NCBI GenBank assembly: GCA_951406725.2
Contig: OX597815.1
Span: 55,676,001 to 55,740,000, forward strand
Source of the DNA: Octopus vulgaris
Taxonomy: Eukaryota
Reading direction: 5' to 3'
DNA: 64,000 bases
The notes beneath the pieces were generated by a model. That model was not told the origin of the DNA, did no database searches, and saw only the letters and a program-made list of their open reading frames with translations. Below, piece by piece: positions 4,470 to 10,949 of this stretch. A program made the translations under genes and the position numbers. Position 1 is the stretch's first letter, and the number at the start of each line of letters is the position of its first letter.

Positions 4470-6885
4470 TTTAGTTACCCTAATACGCTCATGTATACCT
4501 TTCATTCGTGTCTTCCATACTGCTTCTTTCGCTATAGCGACCACAGTGAGAAAACAAACCTTTCCTCAAAGAGGAAGGTGGAACAATCTTTATAATCGAT
4601 TCGGAAGGCAGTTGTACTCTTCCTAAACGTGACAGCAGCTGTTCGGCATAAACCCACATTTCCGAGATTTTCGGACACTGTACAATCGCGTGCAGAACAG
4701 TTTCACTGTTCTGCTCGCATCTTAGGCAAGTGGGCGAGCAAGAATGACCATGCTTTGCGAGTTTATCGCGAACTGGTAAGGCTCCTCAGTAACATTTCCA
4801 AGGCAAAGACTTTTGGAAATTATCTAAGGTCCCTGGCCCGAATGTCCTTTGGTACAGGCTGGCAAGTTGATTATCGTCGAAACCCAGGGTTTCCCCTAGA
4901 ATGTCATCGCACTTATCCTCTACCAACACTCCATAGAATGACGAAGCGGATCCTCCCCACCCGCTGGCATTACCCATGTGGGAGAGGAGCACGAGTGCCA
5001 GACGACGCTCGGCTTGCCAAACTCCCAACTTCGGTCTATACTAGATCCACGGTTCCAGTTCACTAAAACTAGTGAACCTCGGGAGTATCGATTTGATGAA
5101 CGGAGACCACACCCGTTCACCATCCAAGTAGAGCCAAAGATGCCTCAGCGCATGTCTGTGCATCATCAGCCAAGGCATCCCTGACCACCCTTTAGGGGTT
5201 GTTGGCAGCAGATAGAGCGCCTTATAAGAGGTTCTTTGCCCTTTCACAAAAACCGGAAGAACAGTCATTCCAACTTGCTTAGACACGAAGGTGGGGATTG
5301 TCGTGTATGGATCTGTCGGGAATGGCACATGTGTGTGCCTCCCCAACGAGTCCACCCACGACACGCGCCAACTTTCTTGCTTATATCTTGGCCAAAGTCT
5401 TCAGCTCTGCGTTAAGTAGAGTGACAGGTCGGAAATTATCAACTAAGTCGCCCTTGTTTGGGTCCTTTCTTAGCAGTATCACCAACCCCGGTATAAACCC
5501 ATTCTGCTGCCAGTTGGCGAAGACATGCCAGTAGGTGCCCAGATAAGTCTGGTGTACTATAATATAGCTCGTCGAGAAGACTATCAAACCCCGGCGACTT
5601 GCCCCCGCTGCAGTCCAACAAAGGTTCCTCCACAGCTGTTATCGGCCCTTCACAGCTTTCCACCTCGCGCCCCGAGAGATTCGACAAACCAGCAAGGAAG
5701 TCTGTGAGGTCCCTCCTGCACTCCAGTCCACCGCTCCGCCAGAAAAGCTGTGCGGAATGCTCTTGAAAGACGTTACACATCTCCCCAGGTTCGTTTACCA
5801 CATTCTTTTGTTGGTCCGTCAAAGACCTTATTGTAGCATCGTTTCCACGTTGGGTCTCTACCACACTGGCCCATCCAGCGGCTTTGATTCTCCCTTGTCC
5901 TATTGCACGTTACTTTGCTCTGACTATGCACCCCTCGTGTTTAGCCTCAAAGTGTTGGTTAAGAGACAATCTCGCCGCTAAAACTTGGGACACAGAGCCA
6001 GACCTCAGCGCCTCATCCAAAGCCTTAACTAAAGTCCTTTCTATTCTATTTTTCTTAACATCTAATAGACTTAACCTTAATGGCTCTATTGAGGACATAC
6101 CACCATTTGTTATTTATGATGGTTCCTTGCCAATGCCCTCTATTTCGATTCCTGTACTCCTCACAAGCCAAAAGAGACTTGTTAAGTTTCCAGTAGCCAG
6201 GACCCTGCCTACATAACCTATCAAAGTCAAACTTATAGTCGCATGTTTGTGATCACTGTAGCTGACGTAGTGAAAATGTGGACACATAGCTAAATTTTTG
6301 TCTTTGCACCTAATTATTATTCTATCTAAATAAGATCTAGAAGACCCGTCGCTATTAGTCCAAGTCTACAATGGAGCGTCCGGGAATTCTAGCAGATCGT
6401 TGAAGTACTGTTTTCCTCTCCTGTCCGGGTTCGAGTCAACACAATCTACTCGTGCATCGCAGATTGTGTTAAAGTCTCCTAACAATACTAAAGTGTGTGA
6501 CGTACCGAGAAAGTTCTCTAGGCTTCTAAAATAGTTAAACTGTCCAGCGTTCGGGGTAAAATAGACAACTACCAGCCTGAAGGTCTTACCACTGCTGAGC
6601 ATCACGTCAAGGACGACCAACCTGCCTTCCGGGTCGAATAAGATTGTTGTTGTCTCTGGAAACAGATTTTTCCTGAGCAGAACTGCAACACCACTCCCTC
6701 CTCCATGTTGGCATAGAGAAATATATTTCTCGTAGCCGTTTAGGAGAGAGGGAAAGACCTGCTTTGGTTTCCGCGGCAACTATTACATCCAATTTATGCA
6801 ACCTGAGGTCATTAAGGAAACAACCTTGCTTCCAGACTGATCCCAAGCTGCGTACATTTAAACATCCTACATTGAGAGTAGTCAT
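4470..6885 (-). pseudogene. Tx1 ORF2 (APE endonuclease + partial RT), disrupted
   Basis: ORF pieces 6607-6885, 6366-6779, 5910-6098, 5439-5864, 5381-5587, 5041-5364; RT core missing. Confidence 0.85.
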
Positions 6886-6944
6886 AAAGGTAGTGGTTTT
6901 ACCTGGAGTTGGAGATGGGGGGATGGTAATCCCATCTCAATCCA

Positions 6945-8172
6945 TTATTCCGGAGCTTGCGAGGTGTCTTTGACTAGGCCATCAAAGATCTGAGGAGAGA
7001 AATCCTTTCTCAGAGGGCCTATGTCGTGTTTAAATTCGATTTTTATACTGCTATAATTGGTCCTGTCAATGGTAAAAATTTTCAAGTCTTTTGGTGTCTT
7101 TTCTTCATAATTATTAAACACATCTGCTGTGGGAATCTGATTTTTATGGATCAGTCTGGAATTTTGAGTGTTAACTGCAATAAAATTAAGATCTAGTTGG
7201 GTGGAGAATGATGGGGGTTGGGAGTTTGTTTGTTTTGAGCAAGTTTTTTTTGCATGTGGGACTTGTAGGGTTGGGTTGGGTGTTGGATTTCCTCTTTTTC
7301 CTTGAAGTTTGTGTTTTCCAATCGTCGCTTTCCAGTTTGTCCTCTATCGTCTCCTCCTCTGCTGCATCCACTTCCAGAGAAGTCTCAGTTGGCTCTGGTG
7401 AATCTAGTGGTTTCTCGGGAGGTGAGGCACTGATGTTTTCTCTGGAGGTGGCTGACACTCGGATCTAATGTGGCCTTTTTTGGCCACATTTGTGACATCG
7501 AGGCTTCATCCCCTCGACCATTACGCGCAACTTATTATTTCCCAGCATTTCGAGTCCCTGCCCCAGCCAGTTATGGTGCTCTATAACTGTGGCTTGAAGG
7601 ATAGATATTTTATCCTCCAAGTCCATCGTAATGGCTGCCTCTAGCCAGGCAGCATCCACCTCAGATGGAATCTCTCCCACCCTAATCTTGGAAGTCCGTC
7701 TTCCAAAATATGTGTGCAGGAGCACCACTTCTGACGTCTTGAGTGATTTTGTTGAATATTGCCGGGCTTTGTCTTCTGATTTAAATCGTACCTTTATCGT
7801 GGCAAATTTTCTTCCCCTAGTCAGGAACGCCACGTCCTGTCAAACGGGTCTCAAGCACTTTACAACTGCTTCTTTTGAAGTAATGTTCATATTTTTTGTT
7901 TTCATTAAAACAGACTTGTATATTACTGTGCATCGCAGCGTGTTGTGGGTGATCTCATTGGGAGGGCTAACTTTATATTTTTGAAGTTCTTTTGGTTCAC
8001 AATTTAAATTTTTTATGGCCACTCCAGCGGCCGCAGCAAAGTTGATGACTTTTTCCGTTGGTTCAGATTTATTTAGAAAAGTTTCTTCTGTTGGCATATC
8101 CAGTAAAATAGTATTTTTCAAACCACGGCTCATGGTAGGTTCCGGTGATTTATCCATTGCAGAAATGGGCAA
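6945..8172 (-). pseudogene. Tx1 ORF1 (zinc-knuckle nucleic-acid-binding protein), frameshifted
   Basis: ORF pieces 7840-8172, 7465-7833, 7186-7458 plus a C-terminal domain ending at the stop near 6945. Confidence 0.8.
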
Positions 8173-8489
8173 AAACGCCCCACAAAAATGATAATTCCCC
8201 CTTCAAGCAAGGGGGAATCAAATAACTGTCGCAAGCAGTAATAGCAAGACTTTTCAACGTATAACAACAGTTTAACAATTTTTCAACAATAACAAAATAT
8301 AATTCACAGTTCGCAAGCCAAATTGAAAAACGAATTCTTGAAAATTTTGCTCACAATGTAATTGTGTATAATGGGATCCAACATAGAACTGTAATTATTA
8401 ACACGTTGATTAAACTTCTGCTACCTAATTTTACATATACCAACCTGTGGCAGGATATGAAACAAGCAAAAAACAAAAATGAAGAAACA

Positions 8490-8665
8490 TTAATAATAAA
8501 ATAAAGGAGTCTTCGACCCTGTAATTAAAGACTAATAACTCGCCGGTGATATCTTGGTTCAAATCCATTCACAATAAAGATAAAGAGAAATTCATACTGT
8601 TTGATACTGTGGATTTCTACCCGTCGATATATGAATCACTGTTGCATGATATACTGGAGTTTAAT
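8490..8665 (+). mobile_element. Penelope-like element RT fragment
   Basis: Translates VISWFKSIHNKDKEKFILFDTVDFYPSIYESLL (PLE RT motif F.D..DFYPSI). Confidence 0.75.
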
Positions 8666-8689: not shown

Positions 8690-9345
8690 TCGTTTTCACC
8701 TTTCCCTTTTTTGAGATTTTAACTTACTCAGAAGTTTTAATTTTCTTTTTTTGTTGCTTAAGGACTATTTCTAGTTATTCTGTTTGTTTACGCTTTCTAT
8801 TGCTGATCAACCTCTTGGCGTTGGAATATCGAACAAGTCATAACAAATTTCCATTGATATTTCTTCTCTTTTTTCGGTATGTCTAGTTTTCAGCTGGTTC
8901 AAATGTCGTTTGTGCTCTCCTATTTAACTTTTTATTATGTACATCATACTGCTTATTCCTTTTGTCACTATACTGTCCTTGTCTTCCATTCTTATATATT
9001 TTGAAATAAACTTTATCTCCCACATTAAAATACTTTGTTGTGTTTCTTGGGTTTTTTTTTTTTTTGGTAGGTAAAAATTTATCAAAAATTTATTTTGTCT
9101 TCCGGGCAAGCATTAATTCTGCGAGCGACTTGCTTGAACAGGTGTTCGGGTTAGGTGTTACCCTGTAAACTATTAAGAATTGAGTTAGTGCTGCATCATT
9201 TCTTAATTCATATTCTGAATTTTAAAAATTTTATTGCTCGCTTAAATGTGTCTTCGAACCTTTCTGCTTGCTCATTTGATCTCAGGTGGTACGGCGGATT
9301 AGAGTTGTGATTGATTGCATACCTCTCACAGAAACTTTTTAATTC
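8690..9345 (-). mobile_element. Gypsy LTR retrotransposon integrase C-terminus and polypurine tract
   Basis: PPYHLRSNEQAERFEDTFKRA, HKRHLNQL, YDLFDIP; PPT-like AAAAAAGGGAAAGG then TG at ~8700. Confidence 0.8.
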
Positions 9346-9511
9346 ATACCCCGAAAAACTGTCTGCAAGCAATAATTCTGCAAGCAATAATAAAACTCTC
9401 GTTCAGAGATTTATTATTGCTTGCAGACAGTTTTTTGAAATCAGTGACAGTAGTTACTGGGAAAAACATTAAATAGATATTTGCAAACAGGTCCCCCTCC
9501 ATCGAAAACCG

Positions 9512-9570
9512 GTGATTGCCGTACGTTGACAAGAGGCAAATACCTCGAAACTGCAGTCCGTGCGTATCAC
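9512..9570 (+). ncRNA. Type I hammerhead ribozyme, U3:A8 variant (copy 1)
   Basis: CGTACG-TTGACAA-GAGG caaata CCTC-GAAA-C TGCA G-TC/CGTGCG; distal stem I GTGAT/ATCAC; predicted cut after 9558. Confidence 0.85.
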
Positions 9571-9877
9571 TTAGGTTTACGAGAGAGGGATGACCTCCCT
9601 TTGCAAATACCATAAGGGCACAGAAATTGTACCAAAAGCCAGCTGAAGATGATGATCTCCTGGGGCTAAAAAGCTACAGTAACACCCACCCCTAGTGGTT
9701 AGCCATATTCAGATGGTTAGTATACTTTACGTTGTCGAGGGCTTATTGTTTACCTCTCGCTCAGAGATTTATTATTGCTTTCATACCGTTTTTTGAAATT
9801 AGTGACAGTGGTTACTGGGAAAAACATTAAATAGATATTCGCAAACAGGTCTCTCCTCATCGAAAACCGGTGATTAG

Positions 9878-9922
9878 CGTGTGTTGACAAGAGACAATAA
9901 TCTCGAAACTGCAGTCCATGCG
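9878..9922 (+). ncRNA. Type I hammerhead ribozyme, U3:A8 variant (copy 2)
   Basis: CGTGTG-TTGACAA-GAGA caataa TCTC-GAAA-C TGCA G-TC/CATGCG; compensatory changes versus copy 1; predicted cut after 9916. Confidence 0.85.
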
Positions 9923-10144
9923 TATCCTTTAGGTTTTCGAGAGGGGATGACCTCCCTTTGCAAATATCATAAGCGCACAGAAATTGTGTCTAAAGCCAGC
10001 TGGAGACGATGATCTCCTGGGGCTAAAAAGCTACAGTAACACCCACCCCTAGTGGTTAGCCATATTGAGATGGCTAGTATACTTTACGTTGTCGAGTGCT
10101 TACTGTTTACCTCTCGCTCAGAGATTTATTATTGCTATATATAT

Positions 10145-10899
10145 GTAGTTATCCCATAAATAATGCGTTTTTTCCCCAGCTGCATAAAATAGGAGCATAT
10201 TCGGCATATTTTGATTTATTAGTTGAATAAAGATAACAACGCAACGGAAAGTGCGAGGAATATTCATGCAGTATATAGGGATCGGACAATAAGCGTAAGC
10301 CAATGTCAGCAGTGGTTCCAGAAACTCCGAGCCGGAAACTACAGCCTAGAAAACGAACCTCGTCCTGGAAGATGTGTAGAGCTCGACGAGGATGTCCTGC
10401 AAATCCTGGTGAAACAAGATCCCATCTTAACTGTAGAGGAACTAGCAGAGATGCTTGGATTTGGTCATTCAACCAGTCATTCAAGTCAGTGATAGAAGAA
10501 AAACGACCATCTTTGGTTTCAAGACGAAAGATGTTCTTCCTTCAGGATAATGCTCGGCCACATACAAGGCTGGAGCAGTTTGAATGGGAAGCGATGCTCC
10601 ACCCACCATATTCGCCGGATATTGCCCCGTCTAATAATCATTCATTCCGCAGTCTTCAAAATCATTTGGACGGCAAAAATATGAATTCTGTACACTAGGT
10701 CAGAGCAGTACTGGAGGAGTATTTTTCGTCACGGACAAGTGAATTTGGAAGAGGAGCCTTGCAAGCCTACCAGGTAGATGAAAGAGCATGGTGGAAAATG
10801 AAGGAGTGTATATATTAGAATAAGAAAGAATTTTGCTTATCTTAATTTTGAAAAATAAAAGAAGTACAAAAAAAACCGCATTATTTATGGAGATGACCA
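10145..10899 (+). mobile_element. Mariner transposon, internally deleted
   Basis: Imperfect TIRs around CCATAAATAATGCG; transposase HTH (QQWFQKLRAGNYSLENEPRPGR), QDNARPH, HPPYSPDIAPS; TA flanks. Confidence 0.9.
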
Positions 10900-10949
10900 T
10901 ATATATATATAATTGATGAAGGAAACGGAAGATAGATTTGCTACTAGTC

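What the first reader, a model, noticed from the sequence alone, without database searches (positions are those of the whole stretch)
9395..10137. Retrozyme-like tandem: 358-nt monomers bounded by U3:A8-variant hammerheads with covariation
Seen: two diverged ~358-bp units, each with a complete type I hammerhead (9520-9564, 9878-9922). Both cores read UUGACAA rather than CUGANGA. The copies differ by compensatory changes: stem II GAGG/CCUC vs GAGA/UCUC, and a stem I C-G vs U-A pair. Helix III is one C-G pair closing the palindrome UGCA. Established: positions 3 and 8 pair in the active fold and U3:A8 is a tolerated swap; palindromic minimal helix III favours cleavage as a dimer; metazoan non-LTR retrozymes are tandem repeats of a few hundred nt that yield circular RNAs. 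Inference: cleavage after 9558 and 9916 releases a 358-nt monomer that could circularise. A literal CUGANGA search would miss this family; I do not know of it being described in cephalopods.
Basis: partly seen in the sequence, partly recalled or inferred. Interest (0 to 1): 0.9.

Follow-up and report, generated by a model that had tools for sequence, protein, structure and literature searches.

The report
Hammerhead retrozyme spread by Penelope elements
This is one of well over a thousand copies of a 358-letter non-coding repeat that carries a variant hammerhead motif predicted to cut its own RNA, and the way the copies sit in the genome shows the insertion pattern of Penelope-like retrotransposons, whose enzyme likely copies them, probably from a small circular RNA.

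Summary
The tandem and both hammerheads are real, at the stated coordinates. They belong to a dispersed family. One relaxed hammerhead pattern gives 1,756 genomic matches against 1 control; 23 of 30 sampled matches are relatives of this unit.

Stems I and II, an extended stem I and the loop-3 palindrome covary. The 3:8 pair occurs as U:A, C:G and U·G; 185 of 189 sites are paired.

They are 5'-truncated. 98 of 108 arms end at two fixed sites 46-49 nt apart, far from the ribozyme cut. 41 of 63 loci are head-to-head inversions, mostly with the tail on one arm. Targets are AT-rich or (TA)n, with long duplications.

Intact Neptune-type and Hydra-type PLEs are present, and the Neptune-type carries its own U3:A8 hammerhead, but no parent was found by DNA similarity.

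Corrections: the window's two units come from two subfamilies (a chimera). A C3:G8 sister subfamily exists, so a CUGANGA search catches part of the family. U3:A8 is already published.

Verdict: a non-LTR retrozyme, new variant of a known kind. Cleavage and circular RNA are untested.

The parts
9396..10136 (+). Retrozyme insertion: two units plus 26 nt, 5'-truncated, ending at the family's fixed 3' end B, followed by a TA run
9354..9399 (-). Two short fold-back (inverted) pieces of unit positions 18-40 and 10-32 at the 5' junction
9396..9753 (+). Unit 1: subfamily 1 letters up to about 9610-9632, subfamily 2 letters from about 9627-9668 onward (chimera)
9754..10110 (+). Unit 2: subfamily 2
9520..9564 (+). 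Type I hammerhead 1: 6-bp stem I, U3:A8 core, 4-bp stem II with 6-nt loop, A-U and C-G helix III closing UGCA; predicted cut after 9558
9878..9922 (+). Type I hammerhead 2, same anatomy; predicted cut after 9916
9476..9611 (+). Extended stem I (about 35 further pairs) flanking hammerhead 1; in the monomer the same pairing brings the two cut ends together
9559..9916 (+). Predicted 358-nt cut-to-cut monomer (candidate circular RNA); inferred, not observed
10058..10075 (+). Short hairpin just upstream of 3' end A, kept in subfamilies down to about 69% identity; candidate reverse-transcriptase recognition signal (inferred)
10083..10092 (+). Family 3' end A (unit positions 331-340; also 9726-9735 in unit 1)
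10091..10136 (+). 46-nt 'tail' between 3' ends A and B
10137..10909 (+). Flank, not part of the element: TA run and a Mariner remnant (Mos1 HTH, inverted termini)

Best explanation
The locus is a copy of a non-coding, hammerhead-bearing 358-nt repeat family (a non-LTR retrozyme) whose genomic copies show the Penelope-like insertion pattern; tandem transcripts likely self-cleave as double hammerheads, the monomer is likely ligated into a circle, and a Penelope-like reverse transcriptase/endonuclease likely copies it into AT-rich DNA, starting inside the RNA at one of two fixed sites. Shown: family, covariation, two fixed 3' ends, 5' truncation, inversions, target duplications, read-through of the cut site, no coding parent joined. 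Inferred: cleavage (about 0.8), PLE enzyme as the mobiliser (about 0.9), circle as the template (about 0.6). Internal initiation would explain how an RNA with no 3' end can be a template. The Neptune-type family is the leading but unproven helper.
For: Ends: 98 of 108 arms in 63 loci picked by a 3' motif stop at unit positions 328-341 or 18-30, and 2 near the cut. In 75 loci picked by the hammerhead core, 95 of 112 ends are at those sites and 0 at the cut. Inversions: 41 of 63 loci; 29 of 38 two-arm pairs have one A end and one B end. [quoted passage not shown] Target duplication >=8 nt in 33 of 112 loci against 1.8 expected; TA run at an end in 48 of 112. 12 of 98 arms exceed 400 nt and wrap round into the unit itself. 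In 13 of 15 loci fetched as likely tandems the repeated parts are >=95% identical, about as close as the inverted arms, as expected from one template unit. Ribozyme under selection: 3:8 paired in 185 of 189 sites; loop 3 palindromic in 176 of 189 across several different palindromes; 16 of 48 pairs change on both sides, 88% of cells paired against 32-45% for slid controls. The unconstrained fold of the dimer forms the 8-bp inter-hammerhead helix III. Intact PLE frames exist: 781-aa Neptune-type and about 899-aa Hydra-type. 20 of 20 Neptune-type hammerhead sites in hand are U3:A8, with two ends and TA targets.
Against: No cleavage or circle was observed. No PLE shares DNA similarity with the unit: none downstream of 30 GIY-YIG hits; the copies found near PLE frames are separate insertions. 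5' ends are not enriched at the cut (3 of 29 in the test region, p=0.71). Tandem parts differ more at lineage columns than inverted arms do (25/150 against 50/577, p=0.006), and the window, L010 and L211 are heterodimers, which one circle cannot give without template switching or later recombination. A subfamily with C10.1·A11.1, and often U4C, spread to at least 167 copies, so an optimal ribozyme is not required. PMC11167929 found hammerhead mutants of a PLE insert normally in vitro. In bioRxiv 2026.07.22.740005, 8 of 9 retrozyme dimers did not cleave. The monomer's whole fold is only z -1.5. The covariation counts inherit relatedness, a structure taken from the window copy, and pattern-based sampling.
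Confidence: 0.6

Rival explanations
1. Same element and same PLE mobilisation, but the template is the uncleaved multimeric transcript of arrays or tandems; the hammerhead is weak, protein-dependent or not needed for insertion.
For: No ends at the cut site. Heterodimers and excess tandem divergence. Spread of the C10.1·A11.1/U4C subfamily. A 10-hammerhead array exists as a possible multimer source. [quoted passage not shown]
Against: Core, stems, 3:8 pair, palindrome and the end-joining extended stem are all kept across subfamilies down to 69% identity, which needs selection in the replicating lineage. Most tandems are homodimers. Mussel, coral and axolotl retrozymes make abundant circles (PMC7229834).
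Confidence: 0.25
2. The unit is the pseudo-LTR of an autonomous PLE that I did not find; the copies are 5'-truncated remnants.
For: The architecture is that of PLEs. Genome searches score only the best 40-150 candidates of thousands. Naiad, Poseidon and Nematis families were not sampled.
Against: Every long arm wraps into the unit itself. 8 of 192 loci had any PLE protein match, none joined in sense to the unit where inspected. The hammerhead has retrozyme-type helix sizes, not the PLE minimal form (PMC4209133, PMC7229834).
Confidence: 0.08
3. A SINE mobilised by a LINE, or satellite DNA spread by DNA-level recombination.
For: The C4 array's units are 0-1.7% apart with recurring shared variants, which suggests local DNA-level expansion. 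Long target duplications also occur with LINEs.
Against: No poly-A or simple-repeat tail belongs to the element. There are two internal 3' ends and A+B head-to-head pairs. No pol III A or B box by a recalled regex. Copies are dispersed and mostly shorter than one unit.
Confidence: 0.04

Closest known systems
Metazoan non-LTR retrozymes (Cervera and de la Pena 2020, PMC7229834), especially axolotl HHR_Amex1/Rtz331 and mussel 350-390 bp repeats
   Same: Non-coding unit of a few hundred bp, GC 42.5%, type I hammerhead with 6-bp stem I and 4-bp stem II, weak helix III closed by a palindrome, tandems, long target duplications.
   Different: Core is mostly U3:A8, with U·G and C:G subfamilies. Most copies are 5'-truncated or inverted pieces, not arrays. 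The PLE end signature is not described in the parts I read. The main text has no mention of octopus or cephalopod.
Penelope-like elements, Neptune and Hydra clades (PMC8557442; mechanism in PMC11167929)
   Same: 5' truncation, partial tandems, inverted 5' copy, tail on one arm, (TA)n or AT-rich targets, hammerhead upstream of the ends.
   Different: No RT-EN frame; tail 46-49 nt rather than 30-40; canonical-size rather than minimal hammerhead; no DNA similarity to the PLEs sampled here.
U3-A8 hammerheads: Schistosoma Cercyon PLE minimal hammerheads (PMC4209133) and natural variants (PMC3088659)
   Same: Same compensatory swap at the 3:8 pair.
   Different: Here it is the majority and probably ancestral state of a retrozyme family with canonical helix sizes, and all three paired states coexist.
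Vertebrate retrozymes as non-autonomous PLE derivatives (bioRxiv 10.64898/2026.07.22.740005); MRC1 of Chlamys (PMC8557442)
   Same: Same conclusion that such repeats depend on PLEs.
   Different: The preprint argues from co-occurrence and pLTR similarity in Xenopus, and states it did not examine other organisms; here the evidence is the insertion signature, with no pLTR homology found.

Membership tests
Type I hammerhead ribozyme | Core C3UGANG8A...GAAA, U16.1-H17, with a 3:8 pair | tested here: met
   Met through the published U3:A8 swap; 185 of 189 sites paired at 3:8
Type I hammerhead ribozyme | Three helices with covariation | tested here: met
   Both-side changes in stem I (3 of 6 pairs) and stem II (2 of 4); loop-3 palindrome kept in 176 of 189
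Type I hammerhead ribozyme | Match to an Rfam hammerhead model | tested here: not met
   No hammerhead family at E<=10; read as a limit of the models
Type I hammerhead ribozyme | Site-specific self-cleavage | not testable with these tools
   No assay; no genomic footprint at the cut
Non-LTR retrozyme | Tandem unit of 150-450 bp, GC under 50%, one type I hammerhead per unit | tested here: met
   357-358 bp, GC 42.5%; dimers, a trimer and a 10-hammerhead array
Non-LTR retrozyme | Non-coding | tested here: met
   Longest ATG frame 27 aa on the + strand and 72 aa on the - strand
Non-LTR retrozyme | No LTR, primer-binding site or polypurine tract | not tested
   No PBS/PPT scan was run; the copies have variable 5' ends rather than LTRs
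Non-LTR retrozyme | Target duplications longer than 4 bp | tested here: met
   33 of 112 loci with >=8 nt against 1.8 in controls; none visible at the window copy
Non-LTR retrozyme | Expressed as monomeric linear and circular RNA | not testable with these tools
   Only contigs of runs guessed to be RNA were available
Penelope-like element (insertion class) | 5' truncation, partial tandems, inverted 5' copy | tested here: met
   41 of 63 and 35 of 75 loci inverted
Penelope-like element (insertion class) | Two 3' ends separated by a tail, often on one arm only | tested here: met
   98 of 108 arms; 29 of 38 pairs A+B; tail 46-49 nt, longer than the 30-40 described
Penelope-like element (autonomous) | RT plus GIY-YIG frame | tested here: not met
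   None joined to the unit in 192 loci
Non-autonomous derivative of a named PLE | Sequence similarity to a PLE pseudo-LTR in the same genome | tested here: inconclusive
   No similarity to the Neptune-type or Hydra-type copies sampled; only short end motifs resemble the Neptune-type, post hoc; other clades not sampled
tRNA-derived SINE | Pol III A/B boxes and a poly-A or simple-repeat tail | tested here: not met
   No box by a recalled regex; 3' ends are internal and fixed

The most novel reading that the evidence does not exclude
A circular ribozyme RNA parasitises a Neptune-type Penelope enzyme without being derived from its pseudo-LTR. Internal initiation at two mapped sites lets the enzyme copy a circle with no 3' end and roll past one unit. 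That would be the first direct fingerprint of how animal retrozyme circles re-enter genomes. The family is also a natural mutagenesis series of the hammerhead core (U:A, U·G, C:G, plus U4C and C10.1·A11.1) that still spread.
Probability: 0.3. Interest if true: 0.75.

Novelty: new variant of a known kind. Interest (0 to 1): 0.5.

Why it matters
Which enzyme mobilises animal retrozymes, and whether the circle is the template, is open. PMC7229834 calls PLEs 'a strong candidate', and the 2026 preprint says the mechanism remains to be elucidated. This family supplies two mapped start sites, young copies (tandem units 98-99.5% identical) and intact candidate helper frames in one genome, so the question can be tested with the published in vitro PLE assay. 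It also shows that Rfam and CUGANGA-based censuses undercount hammerheads: over 1,700 matches to one pattern, and no Rfam hit on the window copies.

Tried and rejected
Expression. No RNA holder is on record. Contigs of four runs guessed to be RNA cover the repeat, but they also cover the neighbouring Mariner; contigs cannot show ends, strand or circles, so there is no verdict.

Parent search. The RT fragment at 8525-8659 belongs to other Hydra-type families and is not joined to the unit. PLE pieces beside copies in L019, L034, L129, L146, L271, L272 and L325 turned out to be targets or neighbours; L034 interrupts an endonuclease region with a target duplication. A Naiad helper carrying a missed hammerhead was considered; no Naiad was sampled.

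An apparent cluster of 5' ends at the cut vanished in the sample picked by the 3' motif.

An apparent faster decay of the core was due to the C3:G8 subfamily.

L013 and the C4 array first looked like one insertion that later expanded, but their 5' junctions differ.

Constrained energies do not clearly favour double over single hammerheads: window -146.9 against -144.4; L010 favours single, L211 double.

No match in phages. The pattern caught only other subfamilies and was not used. No earlier scan findings.

Full report
1. Observation. The window holds a direct tandem at 9396-10136 (period 357, 2.1 copies, 91%). Each unit has a type I hammerhead exactly as described: 6-bp stem I, core U3-U4-G5-A6-C7-A8-A9, 4-bp stem II with a 6-nt loop, GAAA, A-U and C-G helix III closing UGCA, and a predicted cut after 9558 and 9916. 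Local folds are more stable than shuffles (z -2.6 and -3.0). Rfam reports no hammerhead at E<=10. The stretch is 42.5% GC and non-coding.

2. A family. The unit has 3,357 first-look candidates in the 2.8-Gb genome, of which 40 were scored. Exact-pattern counts are 132 for the window-type core, 635 for a 28-nt 3' motif, 1,756 against 1 control for a relaxed hammerhead pattern and 167 for a C3:G8 variant. Of 30 loci, 23 align to the unit over more than 100 nt at 68-92%; 7 share only the hammerhead. The organism was not given.

3. The ribozyme is under selection in the replicating lineage. Among 189 distinct parsed sites, positions 3:8 are U:A 142, C:G 29, U·G 14 and unpaired 4. That sample is biased by my search patterns; among 24 sites from loci picked by the 3' motif the counts are C:G 11, U:A 8, U·G 2 and unpaired 3. 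Loop 3 is palindromic in 176 of 189, across UGCA, UA, UAUA, CG, CGCG, AU and AUCGAU. On 20 hand-picked copies, 88.2% of cells pair (shuffles 82.6%, slid controls 32-45%), and 16 of 48 pairs change on both sides, in stems I and II, the 3:8 pair and the extended stem. The structure came from the window copy and the sequences are related, so this is support, not a significance test. The unconstrained dimer fold forms the 8-bp helix III between the two hammerheads. The cut-to-cut monomer folds with its ends paired by the extended stem, though its overall z is only -1.5. A tree of 57 of 128 natural stretches downstream of the cut puts U3:A8 on the deep branches, a U·G clade nested among them (100/99) and the C3:G8 copies inside the unresolved young cluster (midpoint root, bootstrap not settled). 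U3:A8 is therefore probably ancestral. The C3:G8 subfamily mostly has C10.1·A11.1 and often U4C, so a literal CUGANGA search finds part of the family: 4 of 34 pieces.

4. How copies insert. In 63 loci picked by a 3' motif, 98 of 108 arms end at unit positions 328-341 (site A, 58) or 18-30 of the next unit (site B, 40); 2 end near the cut and 8 elsewhere. 41 loci are head-to-head inversions, and 29 of 38 two-arm pairs are A+B. In 75 loci picked by the core, 95 of 112 ends are at A or B, none is at the cut, and 35 loci are inverted. 5' ends are scattered and not enriched at the cut (p=0.71). Target duplications of 8 nt or more occur in 33 of 112 loci (control mean 1.8; some are low-complexity), and TA runs abut 48 of 112. 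This is the PLE architecture described in PMC8557442 (5' truncation, partial tandems, inverted 5' copy, tail on one end). PMC11167929 traced the tail to two internal RT start sites. The same two ends, and a hairpin before A, recur in subfamilies at about 70% identity. 12 of 98 arms exceed 400 nt and wrap into the unit itself, so the template was a circle or an uncleaved multimer.

5. Circle or multimer. In 13 of 15 loci fetched as likely tandems the repeated parts are >=95% identical, up to 99.5%, about as close as the inverted arms (L331 and L332 are one duplicated insertion; L333 and L337 are lower). That fits one template unit. Against it, tandem parts differ at lineage columns more than inverted arms do (25/150 against 50/577, p=0.006; 41% between loci), and the window, L010 and L211 are heterodimers. 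The window copy has subfamily 1 letters to about 9610-9632 and subfamily 2 letters afterwards, so it arose by template switching or recombination. Its 'compensatory changes' are subfamily differences, and in dimer mode its cross-paired stems I are weakened. An array with 10 intact cores lies at C4:13.62 Mb; its units are 0-1.7% apart with recurring variants, which suggests DNA-level expansion.

6. The helper. The genome has many intact PLE frames. One family of about 899 aa has a C-terminal endonuclease and a DKT motif; I call it Hydra-type from the motifs in PMC8557442 section 11, and it carries a C3:G8 hammerhead. A 781-aa family has RT, a Cys linker and GIY-YIG; I call it Neptune-type by motif, and no tree was built. 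All 20 of its hammerhead sites in hand are U3:A8; 16 end at a first site and 4 carry a tail, next to TA runs. Its two ends loosely resemble sites A and B, a post hoc resemblance that an older relative does not keep. No PLE sampled shows DNA similarity to the unit. 8 of 192 loci had a match to two Hydra-type queries; those inspected were targets or neighbours.

7. Comparison with print. What I read: PMC4209133 parts 1-2 of 4 (U3-A8 in Schistosoma Cercyon; minimal versus canonical hammerheads); PMC7229834 parts 2-4 of 6 and passages; bioRxiv 10.64898/2026.07.22.740005 parts 1-3 of 5; PMC11167929 parts 1-2 of 4; PMC8557442 passages and section 11; PMC3088659 outline and section 8 (U3:A8 natural and active in vitro); passages of PMC6962438 (235 hammerhead 1 matches in giant squid), PMC7151607, PMC6155905 and PMC9901934. 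No supplements were seen. Searches for hammerhead+ribozyme+octopus (8 papers), retrozyme+octopus, U3-A8, C3U/G8A and PLE signature terms listed no description of this family or of a tail/inversion signature in retrozymes. The library lacks most subscription papers, and Repbase and Dfam were not checked.

8. Verdict. The element meets the sequence-testable features of a non-LTR retrozyme that I tested and inserts like a PLE; it is not an autonomous PLE. Each ingredient is known. The combination, the mapped start sites and the coexisting core variants are what is new. Novelty: new variant of a known kind.

Noticed in passing
L321-L324, L327 (e.g. L322 1164-3509): Abundant intact 781-aa Neptune-type PLE with an upstream open frame and a U3:A8 minimal hammerhead in its 3' region (20 of 20 sites).
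   Followed up: partly
L133 3962-6676, L134-L136: Many intact 896-934-aa Hydra-type PLE frames; C3:G8 hammerheads with a very long stem II in L133, L135 and L136.
   Followed up: partly
L274 about 460; L129 and L146 flanks: Another Hydra-type PLE family has a U4C hammerhead core (CCGAAGA), the same change as in one retrozyme subfamily.
   Followed up: no
L222, L232, L237; L247, L250; L226, L238: Three further repeat groups with canonical-size U3 hammerheads (some with a 6-nt palindromic loop 3) and little or no similarity to this unit; probably more retrozyme families.
   Followed up: partly
L131-L132 (C4 about 13.62 Mb): Array of 10 units with intact cores, 9 of them with a 7-nt loop 2; candidate source locus. 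It sits at the same site of a host repeat as the single copy L013.
   Followed up: partly
L331, L334, L335, L336, L338: Young subfamilies with tandem units 98-99.5% identical; most have a 2-nt CG loop 3.
   Followed up: partly
L272 3327-3679 and 5349-5748: A retrozyme copy plus about 95 nt of its 3' flank is duplicated, inverted, into a neighbouring PLE frame.
   Followed up: partly
window 8525-8659 +: Fragment of a Hydra-type PLE reverse transcriptase, not joined to the repeat.
   Followed up: yes
window 9211-9345 -: Short integrase-like piece next to the 5' junction (weak, E 0.4).
   Followed up: partly
window 10137-10909: Decayed Mariner with inverted termini in the TA run after the element.
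   Followed up: partly
window about 4490-8200 -: Broken LINE with endonuclease-like, RT-like and zinc-knuckle-like frames (labels recalled, not searched).
   Followed up: no
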